From: Escherichia phage BYEP02
DNA length: 64,000 nucleotides
Direction: 5' to 3' (one strand)
Sequence record: OR757454.1
Each line of letters opens with the position of its first letter. The first letter of the stretch is position 1. The notes under the pieces were generated by a model. It worked only from the letters and a program-made list of their open reading frames with translations, was not told where the DNA came from and searched no databases. Position numbers and translations under genes: made by a program. Shown here piece by piece: positions 3,366-55,157 of this stretch.

Positions 3366-3839
3366 ATGAAATCATATGCTCAATTTTTAAATGAAGCGGT
3401 GTTAAATGAAGCATCTAGCACTGAAATTCAAGCTGTTGCAAAAGCTGCCATTGCCGCGGGTAAATATTCCTATAAAGATGCTTCCGATGAATCACGATTC
3501 CAATTTGCTCGTGATATGAAAGCCGAAGGATTTACAGGGAATGCAGTTAGTATGGCTTGGAAAAGTTTAGTTGCTACTGGAGCTGCTTTTGCAAAGGCTT
3601 CAGGTAAACCTGCTCCTAAGGCTGACCCTAAAGCAGCACAAGAAAAAAATATTGCTAAAGGAATTATCTCTAGGTATGAAGCAATTCTTAAAGAACTTTT
3701 GATAATTAAGACCGAAGGCCAGAAACTTGCGCGTGCTTATAGTTTCAAAGATAATCCACATGCTCATGACCTAGAGTATGTTGAAGACCTCCAAAAAATC
3801 ATCAAAGACCGCATTTGGTCTGCTAAACAAATCAAATAA
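3366..3839 (+). CDS. internal head protein (IP-like) with N-terminal capsid targeting sequence
   Basis: N-terminus MKSYAQFLNEAVLNEASSTE resembles T4 IP targeting sequences; flanked by repeated terminators. Confidence 0.65.
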   Translation: MKSYAQFLNEAVLNEASSTEIQAVAKAAIAAGKYSYKDASDESRFQFARDMKAEGFTGNAVSMAWKSLVATGAAFAKASGKPAPKADPKAAQEKNIAKGIISRYEAILKELLIIKTEGQKLARAYSFKDNPHAHDLEYVEDLQKIIKDRIWSAKQIK

Positions 3840-3846
3840 CATTCTT

Positions 3847-3875
3847 AGCCCCGACCAAAAGGTTGGGGCTTTTTG
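3847..3875 (+). terminator. intrinsic terminator, third copy of the agcccc...ggggct hairpin
   Basis: agccccgacc-aaaa-ggttggggct followed by tttt. Confidence 0.7.
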
Positions 3876-4007
3876 GTATCTAGGCCTTTCCGGGCCTCTC
3901 TAGGCATCATTTAGTTTATACCCTTTATAATATATTATCCTACCTTTTAATTGCCCCTCCTGACCCTAGAATTCCCTAAAACTTTTTAAAAATTTTTTCA
4001 CAAAACT

Positions 4008-45466: not shown

Positions 45467-48240
45467 ATGAAAGAATTTTATATCTCTATTGAAACAGTCG
45501 GAAATAATATTGTTGAACGTTATATTGATGAAAATGGAAAGGAACGTACTCGTGAAGTAGAATATCTTCCGACTATGTTTAGGCATTGTAAGGAAGAGTC
45601 AAAATACAAAGACATTTATGGTAAAAATTGCGCTCCTCAAAAATTTCCATCAATGAAAGATGCACGAGACTGGATGAAGCGAATGGAAGACATCGGTCTC
45701 GAAGCTCTTGGTATGAACGATTTTAAACTCGCTTATATCAGTGATACATATGGTTCAGAAATTGTTTATGACCGAAAATTTGTTCGTGTAGCTAACTGTG
45801 ACATTGAGGTTACTGGCGATAAATTTCCTGACCCAATGAAAGCAGAATATGAAATTGATGCTATCACTCATTATGATTCAATTGATGATCGTTTTTACGT
45901 CTTTGATTTGTTGAATTCAATGTACGGTTCAGTATCAAAATGGGATGCAAAGTTAGCTGCTAAGCTTGACTGTGAAGGTGGCGATGAAGTTCCTCAAGAA
46001 ATTCTTCAGTATCAAAATGGGATGCAAAGTTAGCTGCTAAGCTTGACTGTGAAGGTGGTGATGAAGTTCCTCAAGAAATTCTTGACCGAGTAATTTATAT
46101 GCCATTCGATAATGAGCGTGATATGCTCATGGAATATATCAATCTTTGGGAACAGAAACGACCTGCTATTTTTACTGGTTGGAATATTGAGGGATTTGAC
46201 GTTCCGTATATCATGAATCGCGTTAAAATGGTTCTCGGTGAACGTAGTATGAAACGCTTCTCTCCAATCGGTCGGGTAAAATCTAAACTAATTCAAAATA
46301 TGTACGGTAGCAAAGAAATTTATTCTATTGATGGCGTATCTATTCTTGATTATTTAGATTTGTACAAGAAATTTGCTTTTACTAATTTGCCGTCATTCTC
46401 TTTGGAATCAGTTGCTCAACATGAAACCAAAAAAGGTAAATTACCATACGACGGTCCTATTAATAAACTCCGTGAGACTAATCATCAACGATACATTAGT
46501 TATAACATCATTGACGTAGAATCAGTTCAAGCAATTGATAAAATTCGCGGGTTTATCGATCTAGTTTTAAGTATGTCTTATTATGCTAAAATGCCTTTTT
46601 CTGGTGTAATGAGTCCTATTAAAACTTGGGATGCTATTATTTTTAACTCATTGAAAGGTGAACACAAGGTTATTCCTCAGCAAGGTTCGCATGTTAAACA
46701 GAGTTTTCCGGGTGCATTTGTATTTGAACCTAAACCAATTGCTCGTCGATATATTATGAGTTTTGACTTGACGTCTCTGTATCCGAGCATTATTCGTCAG
46801 GTTAACATTAGTCCTGAGACTATTCGTGGTCAGTTTAAAGTTCATCCAATTCATGAATATATCGCAGGAACAGCTCCTAAACCGAGTGATGAATATTCTT
46901 GTTCTCCGAATGGATGGATGTACGATAAGCATCAAGAAGGTATCATTCCAAAGGAAATCGCTAAAGTATTTTTCCAGCGTAAAGATTGGAAAAAGAAAAT
47001 GTTCGCTGAAGAAATGAATGCCGAAGCTATTAAAAAGATTATTATGAAAGGCGCAGGGTCTTGTTCAACTAAACCTGAAGTTGAACGATATGTTAAGTTC
47101 AGTGATGATTTCTTAAATGAACTATCGAATTATACTGAATCTGTTCTCAATAGTTTGATTGAAGAATGTGAAAAAGCGGCTACACTTGCTAACACAAATC
47201 AGCTGAACCGTAAAATTCTTATTAACAGCCTTTACGGTGCTCTTGGTAATATTCATTTCCGTTACTATGATTTGCGAAATGCTACTGCTATCACAATTTT
47301 CGGTCAAGTCGGTATTCAGTGGATTGCTCGTAAAATTAATGAATATCTAAATAAAGTATGTGGAACTGATGGTGAAGATTTCATTGCCGCGGGTGATACT
47401 GATTCGGTATATGTTTGTGTAGATAAAGTAATTGAAAAAGTAGGTCTTGACCGCTTTAAAGAACAAAATGATTTAGTTGAATTCATGAATCAGTTTGGTA
47501 AGAAAAAGATGGAACCTATGATTGATGTTGCATATCGTGAGTTATGTGATTATATGAATAATCGCGAGCATCTGATGCATATGGACCGTGAAGCTATTTC
47601 TTGCCCTCCACTTGGTTCAAAGGGCGTTGGTGGATTTTGGAAAGCGAAAAAGCGTTATGCTCTGAACGTTTATGATATGGAAGATAAACGATTTGCTGAA
47701 CCGCATCTAAAAATCATGGGTATGGAAACTCAACAGAGTTCAACACCAAAAGCAGTGCAAGAAGCTCTCGAAGAAAGTATTCGTCGTATTCTTCAGGAAG
47801 GTGAAGAGTCTGTCCAAGAATACTACAAGAACTTCGAGAAAGAATATCGTCAACTTGACTATAAAGTTATTGCTGAAGTAAAAACTGCGAACGATATAGC
47901 AAAATATGATGATAAAGGTTGGCCAGGATTTAAATGTCCGTTCCATATTCGCGGTGTGCTAACTTATCGTCGAGCTGTTAGTGGTCTGGGTGTAGCTCCA
48001 ATTTTGGATGGAAATAAAGTAATGGTTCTTCCATTGCGTGAAGGAAATCCATTTGGTGACAAGTGCATTGCTTGGCCGTCGGGCACAGAACTTCCAAAAG
48101 AAATTCGTTCTGATGTACTATCTTGGATTGACTACTCAACTTTGTTCCAAAAATCGTTTGTTAAACCGCTTGCGGGCATGTGTGAATCGGCTGGTATGGA
48201 CTATGAAGAAAAAGCTTCGTTAGACTTCCTGTTTGGCTGA
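45467..48240 (+). CDS. 43: DNA polymerase gp43 (family B), frameshifted by a 77-bp duplication
   Basis: 898 aa after removing 77 nt; exo and polymerase motifs present (e.g. YGDTDS-like GDTDS). Confidence 0.95.
45930..46083. repeat. 77-bp tandem duplication (45930-46006 / 46007-46083), 1 mismatch, inside gene 43
   Basis: Read directly. Confidence 0.9.
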
Positions 48241-48252
48241 TAGAATAAATCT

Positions 48253-48274
48253 AGGGACCTCCGGGTCCCTTTTT
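48253..48274 (+). terminator. intrinsic terminator hairpin with T-tract
   Basis: agggacctccgggtccct followed by tttt. Confidence 0.65.
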
Positions 48275-48357
48275 CATACAAGTAATATAAATCTATACTT
48301 AGGAAAAATAGATGATTCTAGGTCCTGTAAATTCATTAAAAATTTTTTCACAAAACT

Positions 48358-48387
48358 GTTTACAAGACTGTTCCTCTGTGGTACTAT
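48358..48387 (+). promoter_or_regulatory. T4 early-type promoter (GTTTAC, 18 nt, TACTAT)
   Basis: Consensus motifs with A/T upstream element. Confidence 0.6.
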
Positions 48388-48421
48388 ACAATTATCAACT
48401 AATACGGATTTGGAGAATAAA

Positions 48422-48658
48422 ATGAAAATTGTTATGGGATGCTTAGCAGTTTGTTTAGTTGCATTAGCAGCAGTTCCATTTGTTAGTGTTGAAAATGATA
48501 CTCAACCTGTGATTGAATCTAGCACCGTTATTCACACTAATGGTAAAATATCAGTTAAAATTGATGATAATCTTCATGTGAATACTAATGGAACGCTGGG
48601 TGTTCAATTAGGTAATATCTGTGTAAGCACTACTGGAGTAATTACTACTTGTATTTGA
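48422..48658 (+). CDS. small secreted protein (78 aa)
   Basis: Signal-peptide-like MKIVMGCLAVCLVALAAVPFVSV. Confidence 0.5.
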   Translation: MKIVMGCLAVCLVALAAVPFVSVENDTQPVIESSTVIHTNGKISVKIDDNLHVNTNGTLGVQLGNICVSTTGVITTCI

Positions 48659-48668
48659 GGAAATTATT

Positions 48669-49049
48669 ATGAAAATCGCTATTTTGGTTATTGCATTAGG
48701 TCTTACTGGTTGTGTAGCTCAAGGACCGGTAGTAAATCAGTCTGATGCAGGAAAAATTGTAAACTGTTCAAGCAAATTTTATAATCCTAATGTCAAGTGT
48801 TATAAAGAAGCTCCAAAGCAAACAGTCGAACAAATGCAGGCGAATTTTGACGAAGCTATTCGTCCAGATGAATCTGCTCAAGCATATCGTAATTCTGATG
48901 TAATTACACGCGAAGAAAAAATTGAAAACTACTGCGCCGAAATTTGGGCTAATTGGGCTAATAATTACCAATGGCGTACTGGTAAAAATGCTCCGATGGA
49001 GTATGTAGTGAATTCTTATAATTCATGCGTAAAAAATTTGACTAAGTGA
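48669..49049 (+). CDS. lipoprotein (126 aa)
   Basis: Lipobox LGLTGC after signal peptide. Confidence 0.55.
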   Translation: MKIAILVIALGLTGCVAQGPVVNQSDAGKIVNCSSKFYNPNVKCYKEAPKQTVEQMQANFDEAIRPDESAQAYRNSDVITREEKIENYCAEIWANWANNYQWRTGKNAPMEYVVNSYNSCVKNLTK

Positions 49050-49056
49050 GGAAAAC

Positions 49057-49308
49057 ATGGAAACTTTAGTAGCAGGTTCAATTTTTATGGTTTTAGTATC
49101 AGGCGTGTTGGCTATTATTATATACATGCTTCCATGGTTTATCGCCTTGATGCGTGGGTCAAAATCGACAGTAGGAATCTTTTTCACATCTTTACTGTTT
49201 AACTGGTCAATTATTGGTTGGTTTATTACATTTATTTGGTCAATTGTAGGTGAAACTAAAAAGTCTGCGCAGCCAAATCAGGTAATTATCATCAGAGAGA
49301 AGGAATGA
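49057..49308 (+). CDS. imm: Imm superinfection-immunity membrane protein
   Basis: 83 aa, two TM helices; between 43 and 42 as in T4. Confidence 0.8.
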   Translation: METLVAGSIFMVLVSGVLAIIIYMLPWFIALMRGSKSTVGIFFTSLLFNWSIIGWFITFIWSIVGETKKSAQPNQVIIIREKE

Positions 49309-49454
49309 AAAGCAAAATTATAGCAGTGTTGCTTTTAATCTTGATGGTTATAATAAGTATATACTATAGTGTAACGGTTCCTCTTATGATTCCAACTATT
49401 ATTTTAGGTTGGAGTTTATTACTGTTACAAATTAAATATGAATGCATCAATTGA
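49305..49454 (+). CDS. possible small membrane protein (49 aa)
   Basis: ATGA overlap with imm stop; hydrophobic; not in supplied ORF track. Confidence 0.35.
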   Translation: MKSKIIAVLLLILMVIISIYYSVTVPLMIPTIILGWSLLLLQIKYECIN

Positions 49455-49461
49455 GGTTTAA

Positions 49462-50279
49462 ATGATTAACGATTATATGACAGTTGAAGAAATCCGTCTT
49501 GATTTGGGTCTTGCATTAAAGGAAAAAGATTTCGTAATTGATAAAACCGGGGTTAAAACTATTGAAATTATTGGTGCATCATTTGTAGCAGATGAACCTT
49601 TTATTTTTGGCGCTCTTAATGATGAATACATTCAGCGTGAACTTGAATGGTATAAATCTAAGAGCTTGTTCGTTAAAGATATTCCAGGTGAAACACCGAA
49701 GATTTGGCAGCAGGTAGCATCTTCTAAAGGCGAAATTAACTCGAATTATGGTTGGGCTATCTGGTCAGAAGATAACTATGCTCAGTATGATATGTGTTTA
49801 GCTGAACTTGGTCAAAATCCTGATTCTCGACGTGGTATCATGATTTATACTCGTCCATCCATGCAATTTGACTACAATAAAGATGGTATGTCAGATTTCA
49901 TGTGCACGAATACAGTACAGTACCTGATTCGTGATAAGAAAGTCAATGCAGTGGTTAACATGAGAAGCAATGATTGCTGGGCAGGCTATCGTAATGATTA
50001 TGCATGGCAAAAATACGTATTAGATAAATTAGTATCTGATTTGAATGCAGGCGACCCATCGCGGCAATATAAAGCAGGTTCTATTATATGGAACGTTGGA
50101 AGTCTTTAGTATCTGATTTGAATGCAGGCGATTCAACTCGTCAGTATAAAGCAGGTTCTATTATATGGAATGTTGGAAGTCTTCATGTATATTCTCGTCA
50201 TTTTTACTTGGTTGATCATTGGTGGAATACTGGCGAAACTCATATTGTGAAAAAAGATTATAACGGTGAGTGGAAATGA
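49462..50279 (+). CDS. 42: dCMP hydroxymethylase gp42, frameshifted by a 77-bp duplication
   Basis: 246 aa after removing 77 nt; thymidylate-synthase-like fold sequence. Confidence 0.9.
50031..50184. repeat. 77-bp tandem duplication (50031-50107 / 50108-50184), about 7 clustered differences (GDPSRQY vs GDSTRQY)
   Basis: Read directly. Confidence 0.9.
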
Positions 50280-51118
50280 TTCAATTCGTAATTCCAAGCT
50301 ATCAACGCGTAGGGGCAGTTTCTGCCCTTGATATGTTTCCGACTGATTATGAACCACATATTGTAGTGCGTGAACACGAAGAAAAAGCTTATTATGATGC
50401 TTATGGGTCTAGAGCTAAAATTGTAACTATTCCTGATGATGTTAATGGAATTGCCGGTACTCGTAAAGCAATTACTGATATGTATGCAGGTCAACGAATC
50501 TGGATGATTGATGATGATACTACTATTCGTATGAGTTCAATACGAAAGAGAGACGATAAACGGCGCGTAGATAAAATTAATCAATTAACTCGTGAACAGT
50601 TCTATGAATTAATTCAATACGTTGAGGATGCTATGGATTGCGGGTATTATCACGGTCATGCTCGTCTACCAATTTTTAAAATTACTTCATCTTGGGGTAA
50701 TTATCGTGAAAACTCATATGGATTCACGAATACATGGTATGACCTCGGAAAACTTACGACAGAACAAATTGGGTATGGAAAAATTGATTTATGTGAAGAT
50801 ATGTACGCATTTCTCAATTTAATTAATCAAGGTTATCCGCATTTGGCCTTGTTCAAATATCTAGTTGTATCTGGAAAATCACACGCTCCCGGCGGGTGCA
50901 GTTCAATTCGTAGTAATTCTAAACATAATAGAGCGCTTGAACAAATCAATAGAGAGTTTCCAGAGCAAGCTCGTTGGAAAACTTCTAATATTGAAAAACG
51001 AAAATCGTTGGGTGAAGAAGACGAGCCATTAAAGGTTCTTCGCATGTGTGTTTCTCGTAAAGAAAAATCAGAAGCATTTCATAAGTTTAATGCTATTCAT
51101 CCAATAGCAGTTGATTAA
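50276..51118 (+). CDS. putative glycosyltransferase in the beta-gt position but unlike T4 beta-gt (possibly T2/T6-type beta-glucosyl-HMC alpha-glucosyltransferase)
   Basis: 280 aa ORF between 42 and uvsX; family assignment by position and size only. Confidence 0.5.
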   Translation: MIQFVIPSYQRVGAVSALDMFPTDYEPHIVVREHEEKAYYDAYGSRAKIVTIPDDVNGIAGTRKAITDMYAGQRIWMIDDDTTIRMSSIRKRDDKRRVDKINQLTREQFYELIQYVEDAMDCGYYHGHARLPIFKITSSWGNYRENSYGFTNTWYDLGKLTTEQIGYGKIDLCEDMYAFLNLINQGYPHLALFKYLVVSGKSHAPGGCSSIRSNSKHNRALEQINREFPEQARWKTSNIEKRKSLGEEDEPLKVLRMCVSRKEKSEAFHKFNAIHPIAVD

Positions 51119-52723: not shown

Positions 52724-54228
52724 GTGGTAGAAATTATTCTTTCTCATCTCATATTTGATCAAGCTTATTTTTCAAAAGTTTGGCCATATATGGATTCAGA
52801 ATATTTTGAAAGTGGTCCAGCTAAAAATACATTCAAATTAATTAAATCTCATGTTAATGAGTACCATAGCGTTCCATCCATTAATGCGTTAAATGTTGCA
52901 TTAGAAAATAGTTCATTTACTGAAACAGAATATTCTGGTGTAAAAACACTTATTTCAAAACTAACCGATTCTCCGGAAGACCACAGCTGGTTAGTAAAAG
53001 AAACAGAAAAATATGTTCAGCAAAGGGCGATGTTTAATGCTACGTCTAAAATAATTGAAATTCAAACCAATGCTGAGCTTCCTCCAGAAAAACGAAATAA
53101 GAAAATGCCAGATGTAGGTGCTATTCCTGACATCATGCGCCAAGCATTGTCAATTTCATTTGATAGCTACGTCGGTCATGATTGGATGGATGACTACGAA
53201 GCACGTTGGCTATCTTATATGAATAAAGCTCGTAAGGTTCCATTTAAACTCAAAATTCTAAATAAAATTACTAAAGGCGGAGCTGAAACTGGAACACTGA
53301 ACGTTTTAATGGCTGGTGTTAACGTTGGTAAGTCATTAGGATTGTGTTCATTGGCAGCAGATTATTTGCAGCTCGGACACAATGTTCTTTACATTTCCAT
53401 GGAAATGGCAGAAGAAGTCTGTGCTAAGCGTATTGACGCTAATATGCTCGATGTTTCTCTTGATGACATTGATGATGGGCATATTTCTTACGCTGAATAT
53501 AAAGGAAAAATGGAAAAATGGCGTGAGAAATCTACTCTTGGACGTTTAATCGTTAAACAGTATCCTACTGGTGGAGCAGACGCTAATACATTTCGATCGC
53601 TTTTAAACGAATTAAAGCTCAAGAAGAATTTTGTTCCAACAATCATTATTGTTGACTATCTAGGTATTTGTAAATCTTGTCGCATCAGAGTTTATTCAGA
53701 AAATAGTTACACAACTGTTAAAGCTATCGCAGAGGAATTGCGTGCTCTGGCTGTTGAAACCGAAACTGTTCTTTGGACCGCAGCACAAGTTGGTAAGCAA
53801 GCTTGGGATTCTTCTGATGTTAACATGAGCGATATTGCAGAATCTGCCGGTCTTCCGCAGCACAGGTTGGTAAACAAGCTTGGGATTCTTCTGATGTTAA
53901 CATGAGCGATATTGCAGAATCTGCCGGTCTTCCAGCAACAGCCGATTTTATGCTTGCGGTCATTGAAACCGAGGAGTTAGCAGCTGCTGAACAACAACTC
54001 ATTAAGCAAATCAAATCACGATATGGTGATAAGAATAAATGGAATAAGTTTTTGATGGGTGTTCAAAAAGGAAATCAAAAATGGGTAGAAATTGAGCAAG
54101 ATTCTACTCCAACTGAAGTTAACGAAGTAGCAGGTTCACAGCAGATTCAGGCTGAGCAGAATCGCTATCAAAGAAACGAATCTACTCGAGCCCAGTTAGA
54201 TGCTTTGGCAAATGAATTAAAATTTTAG
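52724..54228 (+). CDS. 41: replicative helicase gp41 (DnaB-like), frameshifted by a 77-bp duplication
   Basis: Walker A GVNVGKS; 475 aa after removing 77 nt; GTG start. Confidence 0.9.
53780..53933. repeat. 77-bp tandem duplication (53780-53856 / 53857-53933), 2 mismatches, inside gene 41
   Basis: Read directly. Confidence 0.9.
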
Positions 54229-54286: not shown

Positions 54287-54546
54287 ATGGAATTGGTAAA
54301 GGTAGTTTTTATGGGGTGGTTTAAGAATGAAAGCATGTTTACTAAAGAAATCACAATGATGAAAGAGAATTGGTAAAGGTAGTTTTTATGGGGTGGTTTA
54401 AGAATGAAAGCATGTTTACTAAAGAAATCACAATGATGAAAGATGACGTTCAATGGGCTACTACTCAGTATGCTGAAGTTAATAAAGCATTAGTTAAAGC
54501 TTTCATTGATGACAAGAAAGTATGTGAAGTGGATTGCCGAGGATAA
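54287..54546 (+). CDS. dmd: Dmd (antitoxin against host RnlA/LsoA-type RNases), frameshifted by a 77-bp duplication
   Basis: 60 aa after removing 77 nt: MELVKVVFMGWFKNESMFTKEITMMKDDVQW... Confidence 0.85.
54290..54443. repeat. 77-bp tandem duplication (54290-54366 / 54367-54443), identical, inside dmd
   Basis: Read directly. Confidence 0.9.
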
Positions 54547-54863: not shown

Positions 54864-55157
54864 ATGAAAAAATTTATCTTTGCTACAATTTTTGCTTTAG
54901 CTTCTTGTGCTGCTCAGCCTGCTATGGCAGGTTATGATAAAGATTTGTGCGAATGGTCTATGACTGCTGATCAGACTGAAGTTGAAACCCAAATTGAAGC
55001 AGATATTATGAATATCGTTGAGCGCGATCGTCCTGAAATGAAAGCTGAAGTGCAAAAACAGCTTAAGTCTGGTGGTGTAATGCAGTATAATTATGTTCTG
55101 TATTGCGATAAAAACTTTAATAATAAAAATATCATCGCTGAAGTGGTAGGTGAATAA
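54864..55157 (+). CDS. sp: Spackle (periplasmic lysozyme inhibitor, superinfection exclusion)
   Basis: 97 aa with signal peptide MKKFIFATIFALASCAAQPAMA; matches T4 Sp as recalled. Confidence 0.85.
   Translation: MKKFIFATIFALASCAAQPAMAGYDKDLCEWSMTADQTEVETQIEADIMNIVERDRPEMKAEVQKQLKSGGVMQYNYVLYCDKNFNNKNIIAEVVGE

What the first reader, a model, noticed from the sequence alone, without database searches (positions are those of the whole stretch)
48422..49454. Envelope-protein cluster around imm
Between genes 43 and 42 lie a small secreted protein, a lipoprotein (LGLTGC lipobox), Imm and a further 49-aa hydrophobic ORF overlapping the imm stop. Imm blocks DNA entry by superinfecting phage. The neighbours are envelope-targeted, so this may be a multi-component exclusion module. 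Spackle is separately present at 54864-55157.
Basis: partly seen in the sequence, partly recalled or inferred. Interest (0 to 1): 0.4.

Follow-up and report, generated by a model that had tools for sequence, protein, structure and literature searches.

The report
Envelope-protein genes flanking phage imm
Four small genes for membrane or periplasm proteins really do sit together around the superinfection-immunity gene imm of this T4-like phage, and only the lipoprotein gene imm.1 tracks imm across related phages, so this is an ordinary, already sequenced locus with one testable new idea rather than a proven multi-part exclusion machine.

Summary
Between DNA polymerase gene 43 (ends 48240) and dCMP hydroxymethylase gene 42 (starts 49462) lie four same-strand ORFs. 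These are orf78 (48422-48658, hydrophobic N-terminus), an Imm.1 lipoprotein (48669-49049, lipobox LTGC), Imm (49057-49308) and a 49-aa hydrophobic ORF, called gp42.1 in some records (49305-49454, ATGA overlap with the imm stop). Spackle is at 54864-55157. The DNA is 100% identical to Tequatrovirus phages slur03 and Lutter.

The "multi-component exclusion module" reading is only partly supported.
- **For:** Imm.1 belongs to one lipoprotein family (phrog_1754). That family lies next to imm, or one gene away, in 8 of the 10 T4-like genera I examined. In Mosigvirus it moved together with imm to sit beside spackle. Its dN/dS (0.04) is as low as that of imm.
- **Against:**
  - orf78 is a swappable cassette: absent in T4, replaced in T2, located elsewhere in Dhakavirus.
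  - gp42.1 stays near gene 43 when imm moves.
  - Phage EcS1 keeps the lipoprotein, gp42.1 and spackle but has no detectable Imm.
  - A published T4 imm.1 knockdown had no fitness effect.

No function is demonstrated for any ORF except Imm. Interest is modest.

The parts
48253..48270 (+). Terminator-like G+C hairpin followed by a T run, just after the gene 43 stop
   Evidence: Consensus scan. Annotated as a terminator at the same place in phages Lutter and SA20RB. Pattern match only.
48358..48387 (+). T4 early-type promoter-like site, GTTTAC-N14-GTGGTACTAT, upstream of orf78
   Evidence: Regex match and sigma-70 scan with a TG extension. The SA20RB record annotates the equivalent site as a T4 early promoter. 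Not tested experimentally here.
48422..48658 (+). orf78: 78-aa protein with an N-terminal hydrophobic signal or anchor and a beta-rich C-terminal part with two invariant Cys. It is a variable cassette gene.
   Evidence: phrog_4189 at 4.2e-30. Hydrophobic residues 1-25. tblastn finds it in 325 phage records. dN/dS is 0.36. Cys67 and Cys77 are invariant. The AlphaFold2 model has six short strands, with pLDDT about 87 for residues 31-78. Absent in T4, replaced in T2, elsewhere in Dhakavirus.
48669..49049 (+). imm.1 homologue: lipoprotein of family DUF5481 / phrog_1754, lipobox LTGC, Cys15, Val at +2
   Evidence: PF17578 at 1e-70. phrog_1754 at 9.2e-44. Lipobox found. Residue +2 is never Asp in 13 family members. 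C89 and C120 are invariant. dN/dS is 0.042. The AlphaFold2 model has a disordered N-terminus (1-31) and a C-terminal helical hairpin at pLDDT 85-89.
49057..49308 (+). imm: superinfection immunity inner-membrane protein
   Evidence: PF14373 at 7.7e-16. phrog_1039 at 2.3e-32. 97.6% identical to T4 Imm (H172). dN/dS is 0.057.
49305..49454 (+). orf49, called gp42.1 in RB51 and VR7: a 49-aa membrane protein with two hydrophobic segments, whose start overlaps the imm stop (ATGA)
   Evidence: phrog_3610 at 1.5e-25. tblastn finds it in 750 phage records, including other genera at 47-60% identity. Seventeen columns are invariant across four genera. dN/dS is 0.335 against 0.72 and 4.0 in the other frames. 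It is intact but unannotated in the T4 RefSeq record.
49330..49354 (+). Middle-promoter-like site (TGCTT MotA-box-like motif, spacer, TATAAT) inside orf49, reading towards gene 42
   Evidence: Regex match. Lutter and SA20RB annotate a promoter at the equivalent position. Pattern match only.
54864..55157 (+). sp (spackle, gp61.3): periplasmic inhibitor of the gp5 tail lysozyme. It lies about 5.4 kb away and is not part of the cluster in this phage.
   Evidence: phrog_1586 at 1.4e-46. ORF listed. Its function is taken from PMC7677548.

Best explanation
The interval is a probable early transcription unit of a Tequatrovirus. Its order is early promoter, orf78, imm.1, imm, gp42.1, and it probably reads on into gene 42. 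All four products are sent to the cell envelope.

- orf78 is a small periplasm-facing beta-rich protein held by, or cleaved from, an N-terminal hydrophobic segment.
- Imm.1 is a lipoprotein. By the +2 sorting rule it should sit in the inner leaflet of the outer membrane, on a flexible tether of about 20 residues, carrying a disulfide-stabilised helical domain.
- Imm is the inner-membrane protein that stops DNA of a second T-even phage from crossing the membrane.
- gp42.1 is a small inner-membrane protein with two hydrophobic segments.

Only Imm has a demonstrated role.

My best reading is that the Imm.1-family lipoprotein is a separate, non-obligate periplasm-side contributor to the same early envelope-protection programme as Imm and Spackle. 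That programme would cover exclusion of, or damage limitation from, secondary T-even adsorption. I propose it acts on something conserved, such as the incoming tail tip or a host envelope structure, rather than on a particular receptor. orf78 is an exchangeable accessory gene that happens to occupy a variable slot. gp42.1 is tied to the position downstream of gene 43 and is translationally coupled to whatever gene precedes it.

Shown here: the gene identities, the targeting signals, purifying selection and the neighbourhood pattern. Inferred: the cellular locations, co-transcription and any role of Imm.1, orf78 or gp42.1 in exclusion.
For: - **Identity and targeting signals:**
- **Transcription signals:** an early-type promoter and an upstream terminator define one unit by consensus.
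- **Selection:** imm.1 is under purifying selection as strong as imm (dN/dS 0.042 against 0.057).
- **One lipoprotein family:** the lipoproteins of VR7, S16, Klebsiella phi1, Serratia PS2 and EcS1 all match phrog_1754 over its full length, at E from 2.3e-15 to 3e-47.
- **Neighbourhood:** a family member, or a lipobox-bearing lipoprotein at the same position, is adjacent to imm or one gene away in 8 of 10 genera examined, on either side of imm. The Moonvirus and Dhakavirus members were placed by alignment and tblastn rather than by a PHROG scan.
- **Joint relocation:** in Mosigvirus, imm.1 and imm are found together directly upstream of sp, while the gene 43 region there has no lipoprotein.
- **Periplasmic clues:** residue +2 is never Asp. 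Two Cys are invariant. One family member has lost the lipobox Cys but keeps a signal peptide, which puts the functional part in the periplasm.
- **Not receptor-specific:** T2 and this window share 123 of 126 Imm.1 residues. T4 differs at three residues and lacks the C-terminal Lys.
- **orf78 variability:**
- **gp42.1 stays in place when imm moves:**
Against: - No functional data exist for Imm.1, orf78 or gp42.1.
- Knockdown of T4 imm.1 gave no fitness effect (score -0.77, 'Not Fit'; PMC11879866 supplement file 15). A single-phage assay would not reveal an exclusion role, so this is weak evidence either way.
- EcS1 keeps the lipoprotein without any detectable Imm, so the two are not obligate partners.
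- T4-like genomes are strongly syntenic. Adjacency therefore partly reflects shared ancestry rather than function.
- The structure models gave no informative fold match.
- From my own memory of Lu and Henning, J Virol 1989 (I could not retrieve the paper), plasmid-borne imm alone excludes T4.
Confidence: 0.45

Rival explanations
1. The genes share a location only. The space between genes 43 and 42 is a plastic region where small early genes accumulate. Imm.1, orf78 and gp42.1 each do something unrelated to Imm, for example altering the outer membrane or peptidoglycan, affecting lysis timing, adapting to particular hosts or countering host defences.
For: - EcS1 and CIP9 keep the lipoprotein and gp42.1 downstream of gene 43 with no imm in that locus. 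The whole EcS1 genome has no Imm.
- The slot upstream of imm.1 holds three different contents in T4, T2 and this phage.
- gp42.1 follows an arabinose-5-phosphate isomerase gene in three genera.
- The imm.1 knockdown was neutral whereas the imm knockdown scored 'Fit'.
Against: - imm.1 and imm relocated together to sit beside sp in Mosigvirus.
- The lipoprotein stays next to imm even though it is upstream in six genera and downstream in two.
- The apparent early promoter is shared.
Confidence: 0.35
2. The four proteins are subunits of a single exclusion complex that spans the envelope, and all are needed for Imm to work.
For: The genes are tightly packed with short gaps, and imm and orf49 overlap by ATGA. 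All four carry envelope-targeting signals.
Against: - T4 itself lacks orf78 yet is the phage in which Imm immunity was defined (annotation; PMC7677548).
- T2 has another gene in that slot.
- The Dhakavirus orf78 homologue is far from imm.
- Mosigvirus separates gp42.1 from imm.
- S16, Klebsiella phi1 and Moonvirus have no gp42.1 ORF between imm and gene 42.
- EcS1 lacks Imm.
- From memory of Lu and Henning 1989, plasmid-borne imm alone excludes T4.
Confidence: 0.05
3. Imm.1 masks a receptor, like T5 Llp or the Cor proteins. As an outer-membrane lipoprotein it would bind the phage's own outer-membrane receptor from the periplasmic side and block adsorption.
For: Imm.1 is a small, early-expressed lipoprotein predicted to sit in the outer membrane. 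Llp is such a protein (abstracts of PMC9586334 and 10.64898/2026.03.26.714494).
Against: - Imm.1 is 96-100% identical in about 500 Tequatrovirus records. T2 shares 123 of 126 residues with this window, and T4 differs at only three residues plus a missing C-terminal Lys. From my own knowledge, T2 and T4 use different protein receptors.
- No match to Cor or Llp families. The only Cor hit is to the signal peptide of PS2 gp047, at E=8e-4.
- From my own knowledge, T4 superinfecting phage still adsorb.
Confidence: 0.08

Closest known systems
T4 imm locus (43 - imm.1 - imm - 42), GenBank NC_000866 and M37159
   Same: Same gene order and nearly the same proteins. Imm is 97.6% identical. Imm.1 differs at three residues and lacks the C-terminal Lys in T4. 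The 49-aa ORF is present in T4 DNA. Terminator and promoter-like sites sit at the same places.
   Different: T4 has no orf78. There imm.1 starts exactly where orf78 starts here, a clean indel of about 247 bp between two ATGAAAAT starts. T4 RefSeq does not annotate the 49-aa ORF and labels imm.1 'iduronate sulfatase'.
Mosigvirus (RB69-like) imm.1-imm-sp cluster
   Same: Homologous lipoprotein (33% identity, lipobox LTGC) directly upstream of imm.
   Different: The cluster lies between dmd and 61.2 with spackle immediately downstream. gp42.1 stays beside gene 43 after an arabinose-5-phosphate isomerase gene. There is no orf78.
T5 Llp and Cor-type superinfection-exclusion lipoproteins
   Same: Small phage-encoded lipoproteins, made early, predicted to sit in the inner leaflet of the outer membrane.
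   Different: No sequence or fold similarity. Imm.1 does not vary with receptor usage. No adsorption-blocking role is known.
T4 Spackle (gp61.3)
   Same: A small early periplasmic protein that contains disulfide bonds and acts in superinfection exclusion (PMC7677548). It is adjacent to imm.1-imm in Mosigvirus.
   Different: Unrelated sequence. Its target (the gp5 lysozyme) is known, whereas Imm.1 has no known target. In this window it lies 5.4 kb away.

Membership tests
Imm_superinfect (Pfam PF14373) / T4 Imm | Profile match above the curated cut-off | tested here: met
   58.2 bits against a cut-off of 27.9, E=7.7e-16. phrog_1039 at 2.3e-32. 97.6% identical to T4 Imm.
Imm_superinfect (Pfam PF14373) / T4 Imm | Two long hydrophobic stretches of a small inner-membrane protein | tested here: met
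   Kyte-Doolittle segments at residues 1-34 and about 39-66.
Imm_superinfect (Pfam PF14373) / T4 Imm | Blocks DNA entry of superinfecting T-even phage | not testable with these tools
   Needs infection experiments. Inferred from near-identity to T4 Imm.
Bacterial lipoprotein (signal peptidase II substrate), for Imm.1 | Lipobox [LVI][ASTVI][GAS]C at the end of a short positively charged and hydrophobic signal | tested here: met
   MK-IAILVIALG-LTGC, with Cys15.
Bacterial lipoprotein (signal peptidase II substrate), for Imm.1 | Lipobox Cys conserved in homologues | tested here: met
   Present in all 13 members scanned, across about 10 genera. One further representative, P0004, has Phe in place of Cys and a signal-peptidase-I type site.
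Bacterial lipoprotein (signal peptidase II substrate), for Imm.1 | Actual lipid modification and outer-membrane sorting | not testable with these tools
   Residue +2 is V, G, A, S or Q and never Asp. The E. coli sorting rule (established knowledge) then predicts the outer membrane. Needs globomycin or palmitate labelling and cell fractionation.
DUF5481 (PF17578) / phrog_1754 | Profile match | tested here: met
   235.1 bits against a cut-off of 27. phrog_1754 at 9.2e-44. The lipoproteins of five other genera also match phrog_1754. Profile-profile comparison aligns only the N-terminal 45 columns (97.9% probability).
Sec-type secreted protein, for orf78 | N-terminal positive residue, hydrophobic core and a small-x-small cleavage site | tested here: inconclusive
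   Lys2, a hydrophobic stretch over residues 1-25 and three candidate sites, the most canonical being A-L-A|A after residue 16. No SignalP-type predictor was available. Some variants carry 7-residue duplications in the hydrophobic core. It could equally be an uncleaved anchor.
   Holds only for the lipoprotein-imm pair, in 8 of 10 genera. orf78 is variable. gp42.1 is separated from imm in Mosigvirus. EcS1 has no Imm.
   One early-type promoter sits upstream and a terminator-like hairpin before it. No terminator-like site was found within or after the ORFs up to gene 42. These are consensus matches only.
   The only relevant data are a neutral T4 imm.1 knockdown in a single-phage fitness screen.
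Llp / Cor receptor-blocking lipoproteins | Sequence or fold relationship to Llp or Cor | tested here: not met
   No PHROG, Pfam, PADLOC or PDB hit. The Cor hit of PS2 gp047 covers only the signal peptide.
Spackle (phrog_1586), for 54864-55157 | Profile match over the full length | tested here: met
   E=1.4e-46, residues 1-97 matched to profile positions 1-96 of 96.

The most novel reading that the evidence does not exclude
Imm.1-family lipoproteins (phrog_1754) could be an unrecognised third layer of T-even superinfection exclusion. Anchored under the outer membrane, they would act on the incoming tail tip. Together with periplasmic Spackle and inner-membrane Imm they would form a barrier covering each envelope compartment in turn. 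The contiguous imm.1-imm-sp cluster in Mosigvirus would then be the compact form of that system.
Probability: 0.25. Interest if true: 0.6.

Novelty: new member of a known kind. Interest (0 to 1): 0.35.

Why it matters
How Imm blocks DNA entry has been unclear since the gene was cloned around 1989. Only Imm and Spackle are named as T4 exclusion factors in the papers I read (PMC7677548 and PMC6832632). A strongly conserved lipoprotein that follows imm across genera, and that sits beside spackle in one genus, is a cheap and specific candidate to test by deletion and expression.

If it contributes, the textbook two-protein picture of T-even exclusion would need a third member. If it does not, the locus is simply a set of unrelated small envelope genes.

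For annotation, the work shows three things:
- gp42.1 is a real gene that is missing from the T4 reference record.
- The label 'iduronate sulfatase' for imm.1 has no support from any profile or structure search run here.
- The label 'immunity protein' that many records give to imm.1 and gp42.1 is likewise unsupported.

Tried and rejected
- **Sequence search of solved structures.** Imm.1 and orf78 gave nothing usable.
- **NCBIfam and PADLOC.** No meaningful hits for any of the four ORFs.
- **Word-indexed protein search with Imm.1.** It returned only three near-identical clusters. The exhaustive search of 1.84 billion representatives found only six proteins. The family is therefore small and is known here only from T4-like phage records.
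- **AlphaFold2 model of Imm.1** (pLDDT 64.7; only the C-terminal helical hairpin is confident). Foldseek against the PDB gave no match better than E=3.5.
- **AlphaFold2 model of orf78** (pLDDT 70.5). Foldseek against the PDB and BFVD found only its own family. Tail-fibre and adenovirus-shaft hits at E=0.7-3, and Pfam Av_adeno_fibre at E=0.052, are too weak to use.
- **Profile comparison of the Imm.1 family with S16 gp27 alone** was inconclusive (18.7% probability). Homology was settled instead by PHROG matches.
- **IMG/VR scan with Imm** returned only five loci, so I drew the selection analysis from annotated phage records.
- **Literature.** No paper in the library mentions DUF5481, or imm.1 together with T4. 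I could not retrieve Lu and Henning 1989.
- **A borderline tblastn hit of Imm to EcS1 ORF143** (E=0.001) was rejected. Pfam finds no Imm domain there and the similarity is confined to hydrophobic segments.
Full report
**What is there.** The window comes from a T4-like phage of the genus Tequatrovirus. Positions 48200-49500 are 100% identical to phages slur03, slur08, slur14 and Lutter, and 518 phage records match. Four ORFs lie on the + strand between the end of DNA polymerase gene 43 (48240) and the start of dCMP hydroxymethylase gene 42 (49462). They are orf78 (48422-48658), an imm.1 homologue (48669-49049), imm (49057-49308) and a 49-aa ORF (49305-49454). Each has a Shine-Dalgarno-like stretch upstream, and the last ORF starts at an ATGA overlap with the imm stop. 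A terminator-like hairpin (48253-48270) follows gene 43. A site matching the T4 early promoter pattern, GTTTAC-N14-GTGGTACTAT, lies at 48358-48387. A middle-promoter-like TGCTT...TATAAT site lies inside the 49-aa ORF at 49330-49354. The records for Lutter and SA20RB annotate the same elements. So is the position of spackle (54864-55157; phrog_1586, E=1.4e-46).

**Identity of each ORF.**
- **Imm.** It matches Pfam Imm_superinfect (58.2 bits, cut-off 27.9) and is 97.6% identical to T4 Imm.
- **The 126-aa protein.** This is T4 Imm.1, in family DUF5481 (235 bits) and phrog_1754. It has a strict lipobox, L-T-G-C, with Cys15 and Val at +2, and four further Cys.
- **The 49-aa ORF.** It belongs to phrog_3610. 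RB51 and VR7 annotate it as gp42.1. It is intact in T4 DNA but absent from the T4 RefSeq annotation. It has two hydrophobic segments around a conserved P-x-M-x-P-T turn, and a conserved Y-E-C-x-N tail.
- **orf78.** It belongs to phrog_4189. It has a hydrophobic N-terminus (residues 1-25) with A-L-A|A as the most canonical of three candidate cleavage sites. Its C-terminal part contains three copies of an h-x-h-x-[TN][TN]-G-x-h-x-h motif and two invariant Cys.

**Are they real genes?** All four ORFs are intact in the Tequatrovirus loci compared. The one exception is imm.1 in the record marked UNVERIFIED (CJY920), which is frameshifted. Pairwise Nei-Gojobori dN/dS is 0.042 for imm.1, 0.057 for imm, 0.36 for orf78 and 0.335 for gp42.1. 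The other two frames of the gp42.1 DNA give 0.72 and 4.0 and contain stops. gp42.1 is recognisable at 47-60% identity in other genera, among them Mosigvirus, Gaprivervirus, Dhakavirus, Kanagawavirus and Kagamiyamavirus. It is therefore a coding gene and not just conserved promoter DNA.

**Neighbourhood analysis, the key test of the module idea.**

*The lipoprotein.* The lipoproteins next to imm in VR7, S16, a Klebsiella phage and Serratia PS2, and the one downstream of gene 43 in EcS1, all match phrog_1754 over its full length. The Moonvirus and Dhakavirus proteins align with them and carry the same lipobox and Cys pattern. A direct profile comparison aligns only the signal, lipobox and a post-lipobox G-x-V-V-x-A-S-E-x-G-K motif. 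A family member lies directly upstream of imm in Tequatrovirus, Mosigvirus, Gelderlandvirus S16, Klebsiella phi1, Moonvirus NM4.3 and Muldoonvirus PS2. It lies one gene downstream (imm, gp42.1, lipoprotein) in Gaprivervirus VR7 and SP18 and in Dhakavirus PSD9. In Mosigvirus the order imm.1-imm-sp lies between dmd and 61.2, and the gene 43 region has no lipoprotein. That joint relocation, plus adjacency on either side of imm, goes beyond plain synteny. None of 13 family members scanned has Asp at +2. The E. coli sorting rule then predicts an outer-membrane location. One further representative lacks the lipobox Cys but keeps a signal peptide. Two C-terminal Cys are invariant.

*gp42.1.* It overlaps the imm stop in Tequatrovirus, Gaprivervirus and Dhakavirus. 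In Mosigvirus, EcS1 and CIP9 it instead directly follows an arabinose-5-phosphate isomerase gene next to gene 43, overlapping its end in the two records where it is annotated. It is absent between imm and gene 42 in S16, Klebsiella phi1 and Moonvirus. Its link is to the position, not strictly to imm.

*orf78.* It is absent from T4 and two other Tequatrovirus loci, through a clean indel between two ATGAAAAT start sites. T2 has an unrelated 83-aa soluble ORF there. The Dhakavirus homologue lies near the lysozyme, nudix hydrolase and pyrimidine-dimer excision genes. It is a swappable cassette.

*A genome without Imm.* I scanned the whole EcS1 genome with a custom Imm HMM and with tblastn. No Imm homologue appeared. 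The single borderline hit has no Pfam Imm domain. EcS1 nevertheless has the lipoprotein, gp42.1 and spackle. The lipoprotein therefore does not depend on Imm.

**Other evidence.**
- The Imm.1 family is small. Only six representatives reach E below 0.001 among 1.84 billion proteins.
- The AlphaFold2 model of Imm.1 has a disordered N-terminal 31 residues and a confident C-terminal helical hairpin. The orf78 model has six short strands. Neither gave a significant fold match outside its own family.
- Imm.1 is at least 96% identical in about 500 Tequatrovirus records. T2 shares 123 of 126 residues with this window. From my own knowledge T2 and T4 use different receptors, which argues against an Llp-like receptor-masking role.
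- In a published knockdown screen, T4 imm.1 is listed as of unknown function and 'Not Fit' (score -0.77), while imm scores 'Fit' (1.40, p=0.022) (PMC11879866 supplement). That screen measures single-phage fitness, not exclusion.
- The reviews and structural papers I read name only Imm and Sp as T4 exclusion proteins (PMC7677548 and PMC6832632).
- From memory of Lu and Henning 1989, which I could not retrieve, imm alone on a plasmid excludes T4.

**Conclusion.** The cluster is a genuine, probably early, set of four envelope-directed genes. It is already present in hundreds of sequenced genomes. It is not an obligate four-part machine. The one relationship that survives comparison is between the Imm.1-family lipoprotein and imm.

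My best reading, at confidence 0.45, is that the lipoprotein is an independent contributor, acting in the periplasm, to the same anti-superinfection and envelope-protection programme as Imm and Spackle. The main rival, at 0.35, is that the genes merely share a location. The strong module reading (0.05) and the receptor-masking reading (0.08) are disfavoured.

The novelty is low to moderate: these are known genes of unknown function, with one specific and testable hypothesis attached.

Noticed in passing
window 619-61842, e.g. 45928-46081, 50029-50105, about 53767-53920, 54290-54443: About 30 tandem duplications of exactly 77 nt, plus 2 of 81 nt, are scattered through the window; the copies listed are 90-100% identical. 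They split gene 43 (the ORF restarts at 46099), gene 42 (truncated at 50109) and gene 41 (split at 53902), and they duplicate the start of the dmd-like ORF at 54370. No deposited phage record carries the gene 42 duplication. This looks like untrimmed k-mer (k=77) overlaps from an assembly graph of a mixed phage population, not biology. None lies in 47900-49700.
   Followed up: partly
L001 (T4 NC_000866) 3728-3877 minus strand; L009 2734-2871; L026 about 2447-2590: The gp42.1 ORF is intact but unannotated in the T4 reference genome, in Dhakavirus PSD9 and in Kanagawavirus CIP9.
   Followed up: yes
L001 4137-4514 (T4 imm.1) and many records: RefSeq labels T4 imm.1 'iduronate sulfatase'. Many records label imm.1 or gp42.1 'immunity protein'. 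No profile or structure search here supports either label.
   Followed up: partly
window 48422-48658; P0012, P0018, P0019: Variants of orf78 carry 7-residue tandem duplications (CLVALAA) inside the N-terminal hydrophobic segment. In one variant this creates an L-A-A-C lipobox-like motif, and UniRef calls that variant a lipoprotein. The mature part shows a threefold beta-hairpin motif with only weak resemblance to fibre-shaft repeats.
   Followed up: partly
window 54864-55157; L003 4237-4530; L028 4649-4972: Spackle signal peptides contain a conserved lipobox-like motif (L-A-S-C or A-V-S-C) ahead of what I recall to be the A-x-A cleavage site. This holds in this phage, in Mosigvirus and in EcS1.
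   Followed up: no
L024 1142-1802 (Shigella phage DS8); L025 1486-1808 (Acinetobacter phage SR): In phages unrelated to T4, imm homologues also have envelope-type neighbours. DS8 has a signal-peptide protein upstream of imm. Phage SR has a 37-aa hydrophobic ORF overlapping the imm stop.
   Followed up: no
window 50270-51118: The gene after gene 42 is of the beta-glucosyl-HMC-alpha-glucosyltransferase type (phrog_842 at 1.4e-88; Pfam TAGT). T4 has a beta-glucosyltransferase at this position instead.
   Followed up: no
L032 40639-41145 minus strand (EcS1 ORF143): A 168-aa EcS1 protein has C-terminal hydrophobic segments with weak similarity to Imm (tblastn E=0.001) but no Pfam Imm domain.
   Followed up: partly
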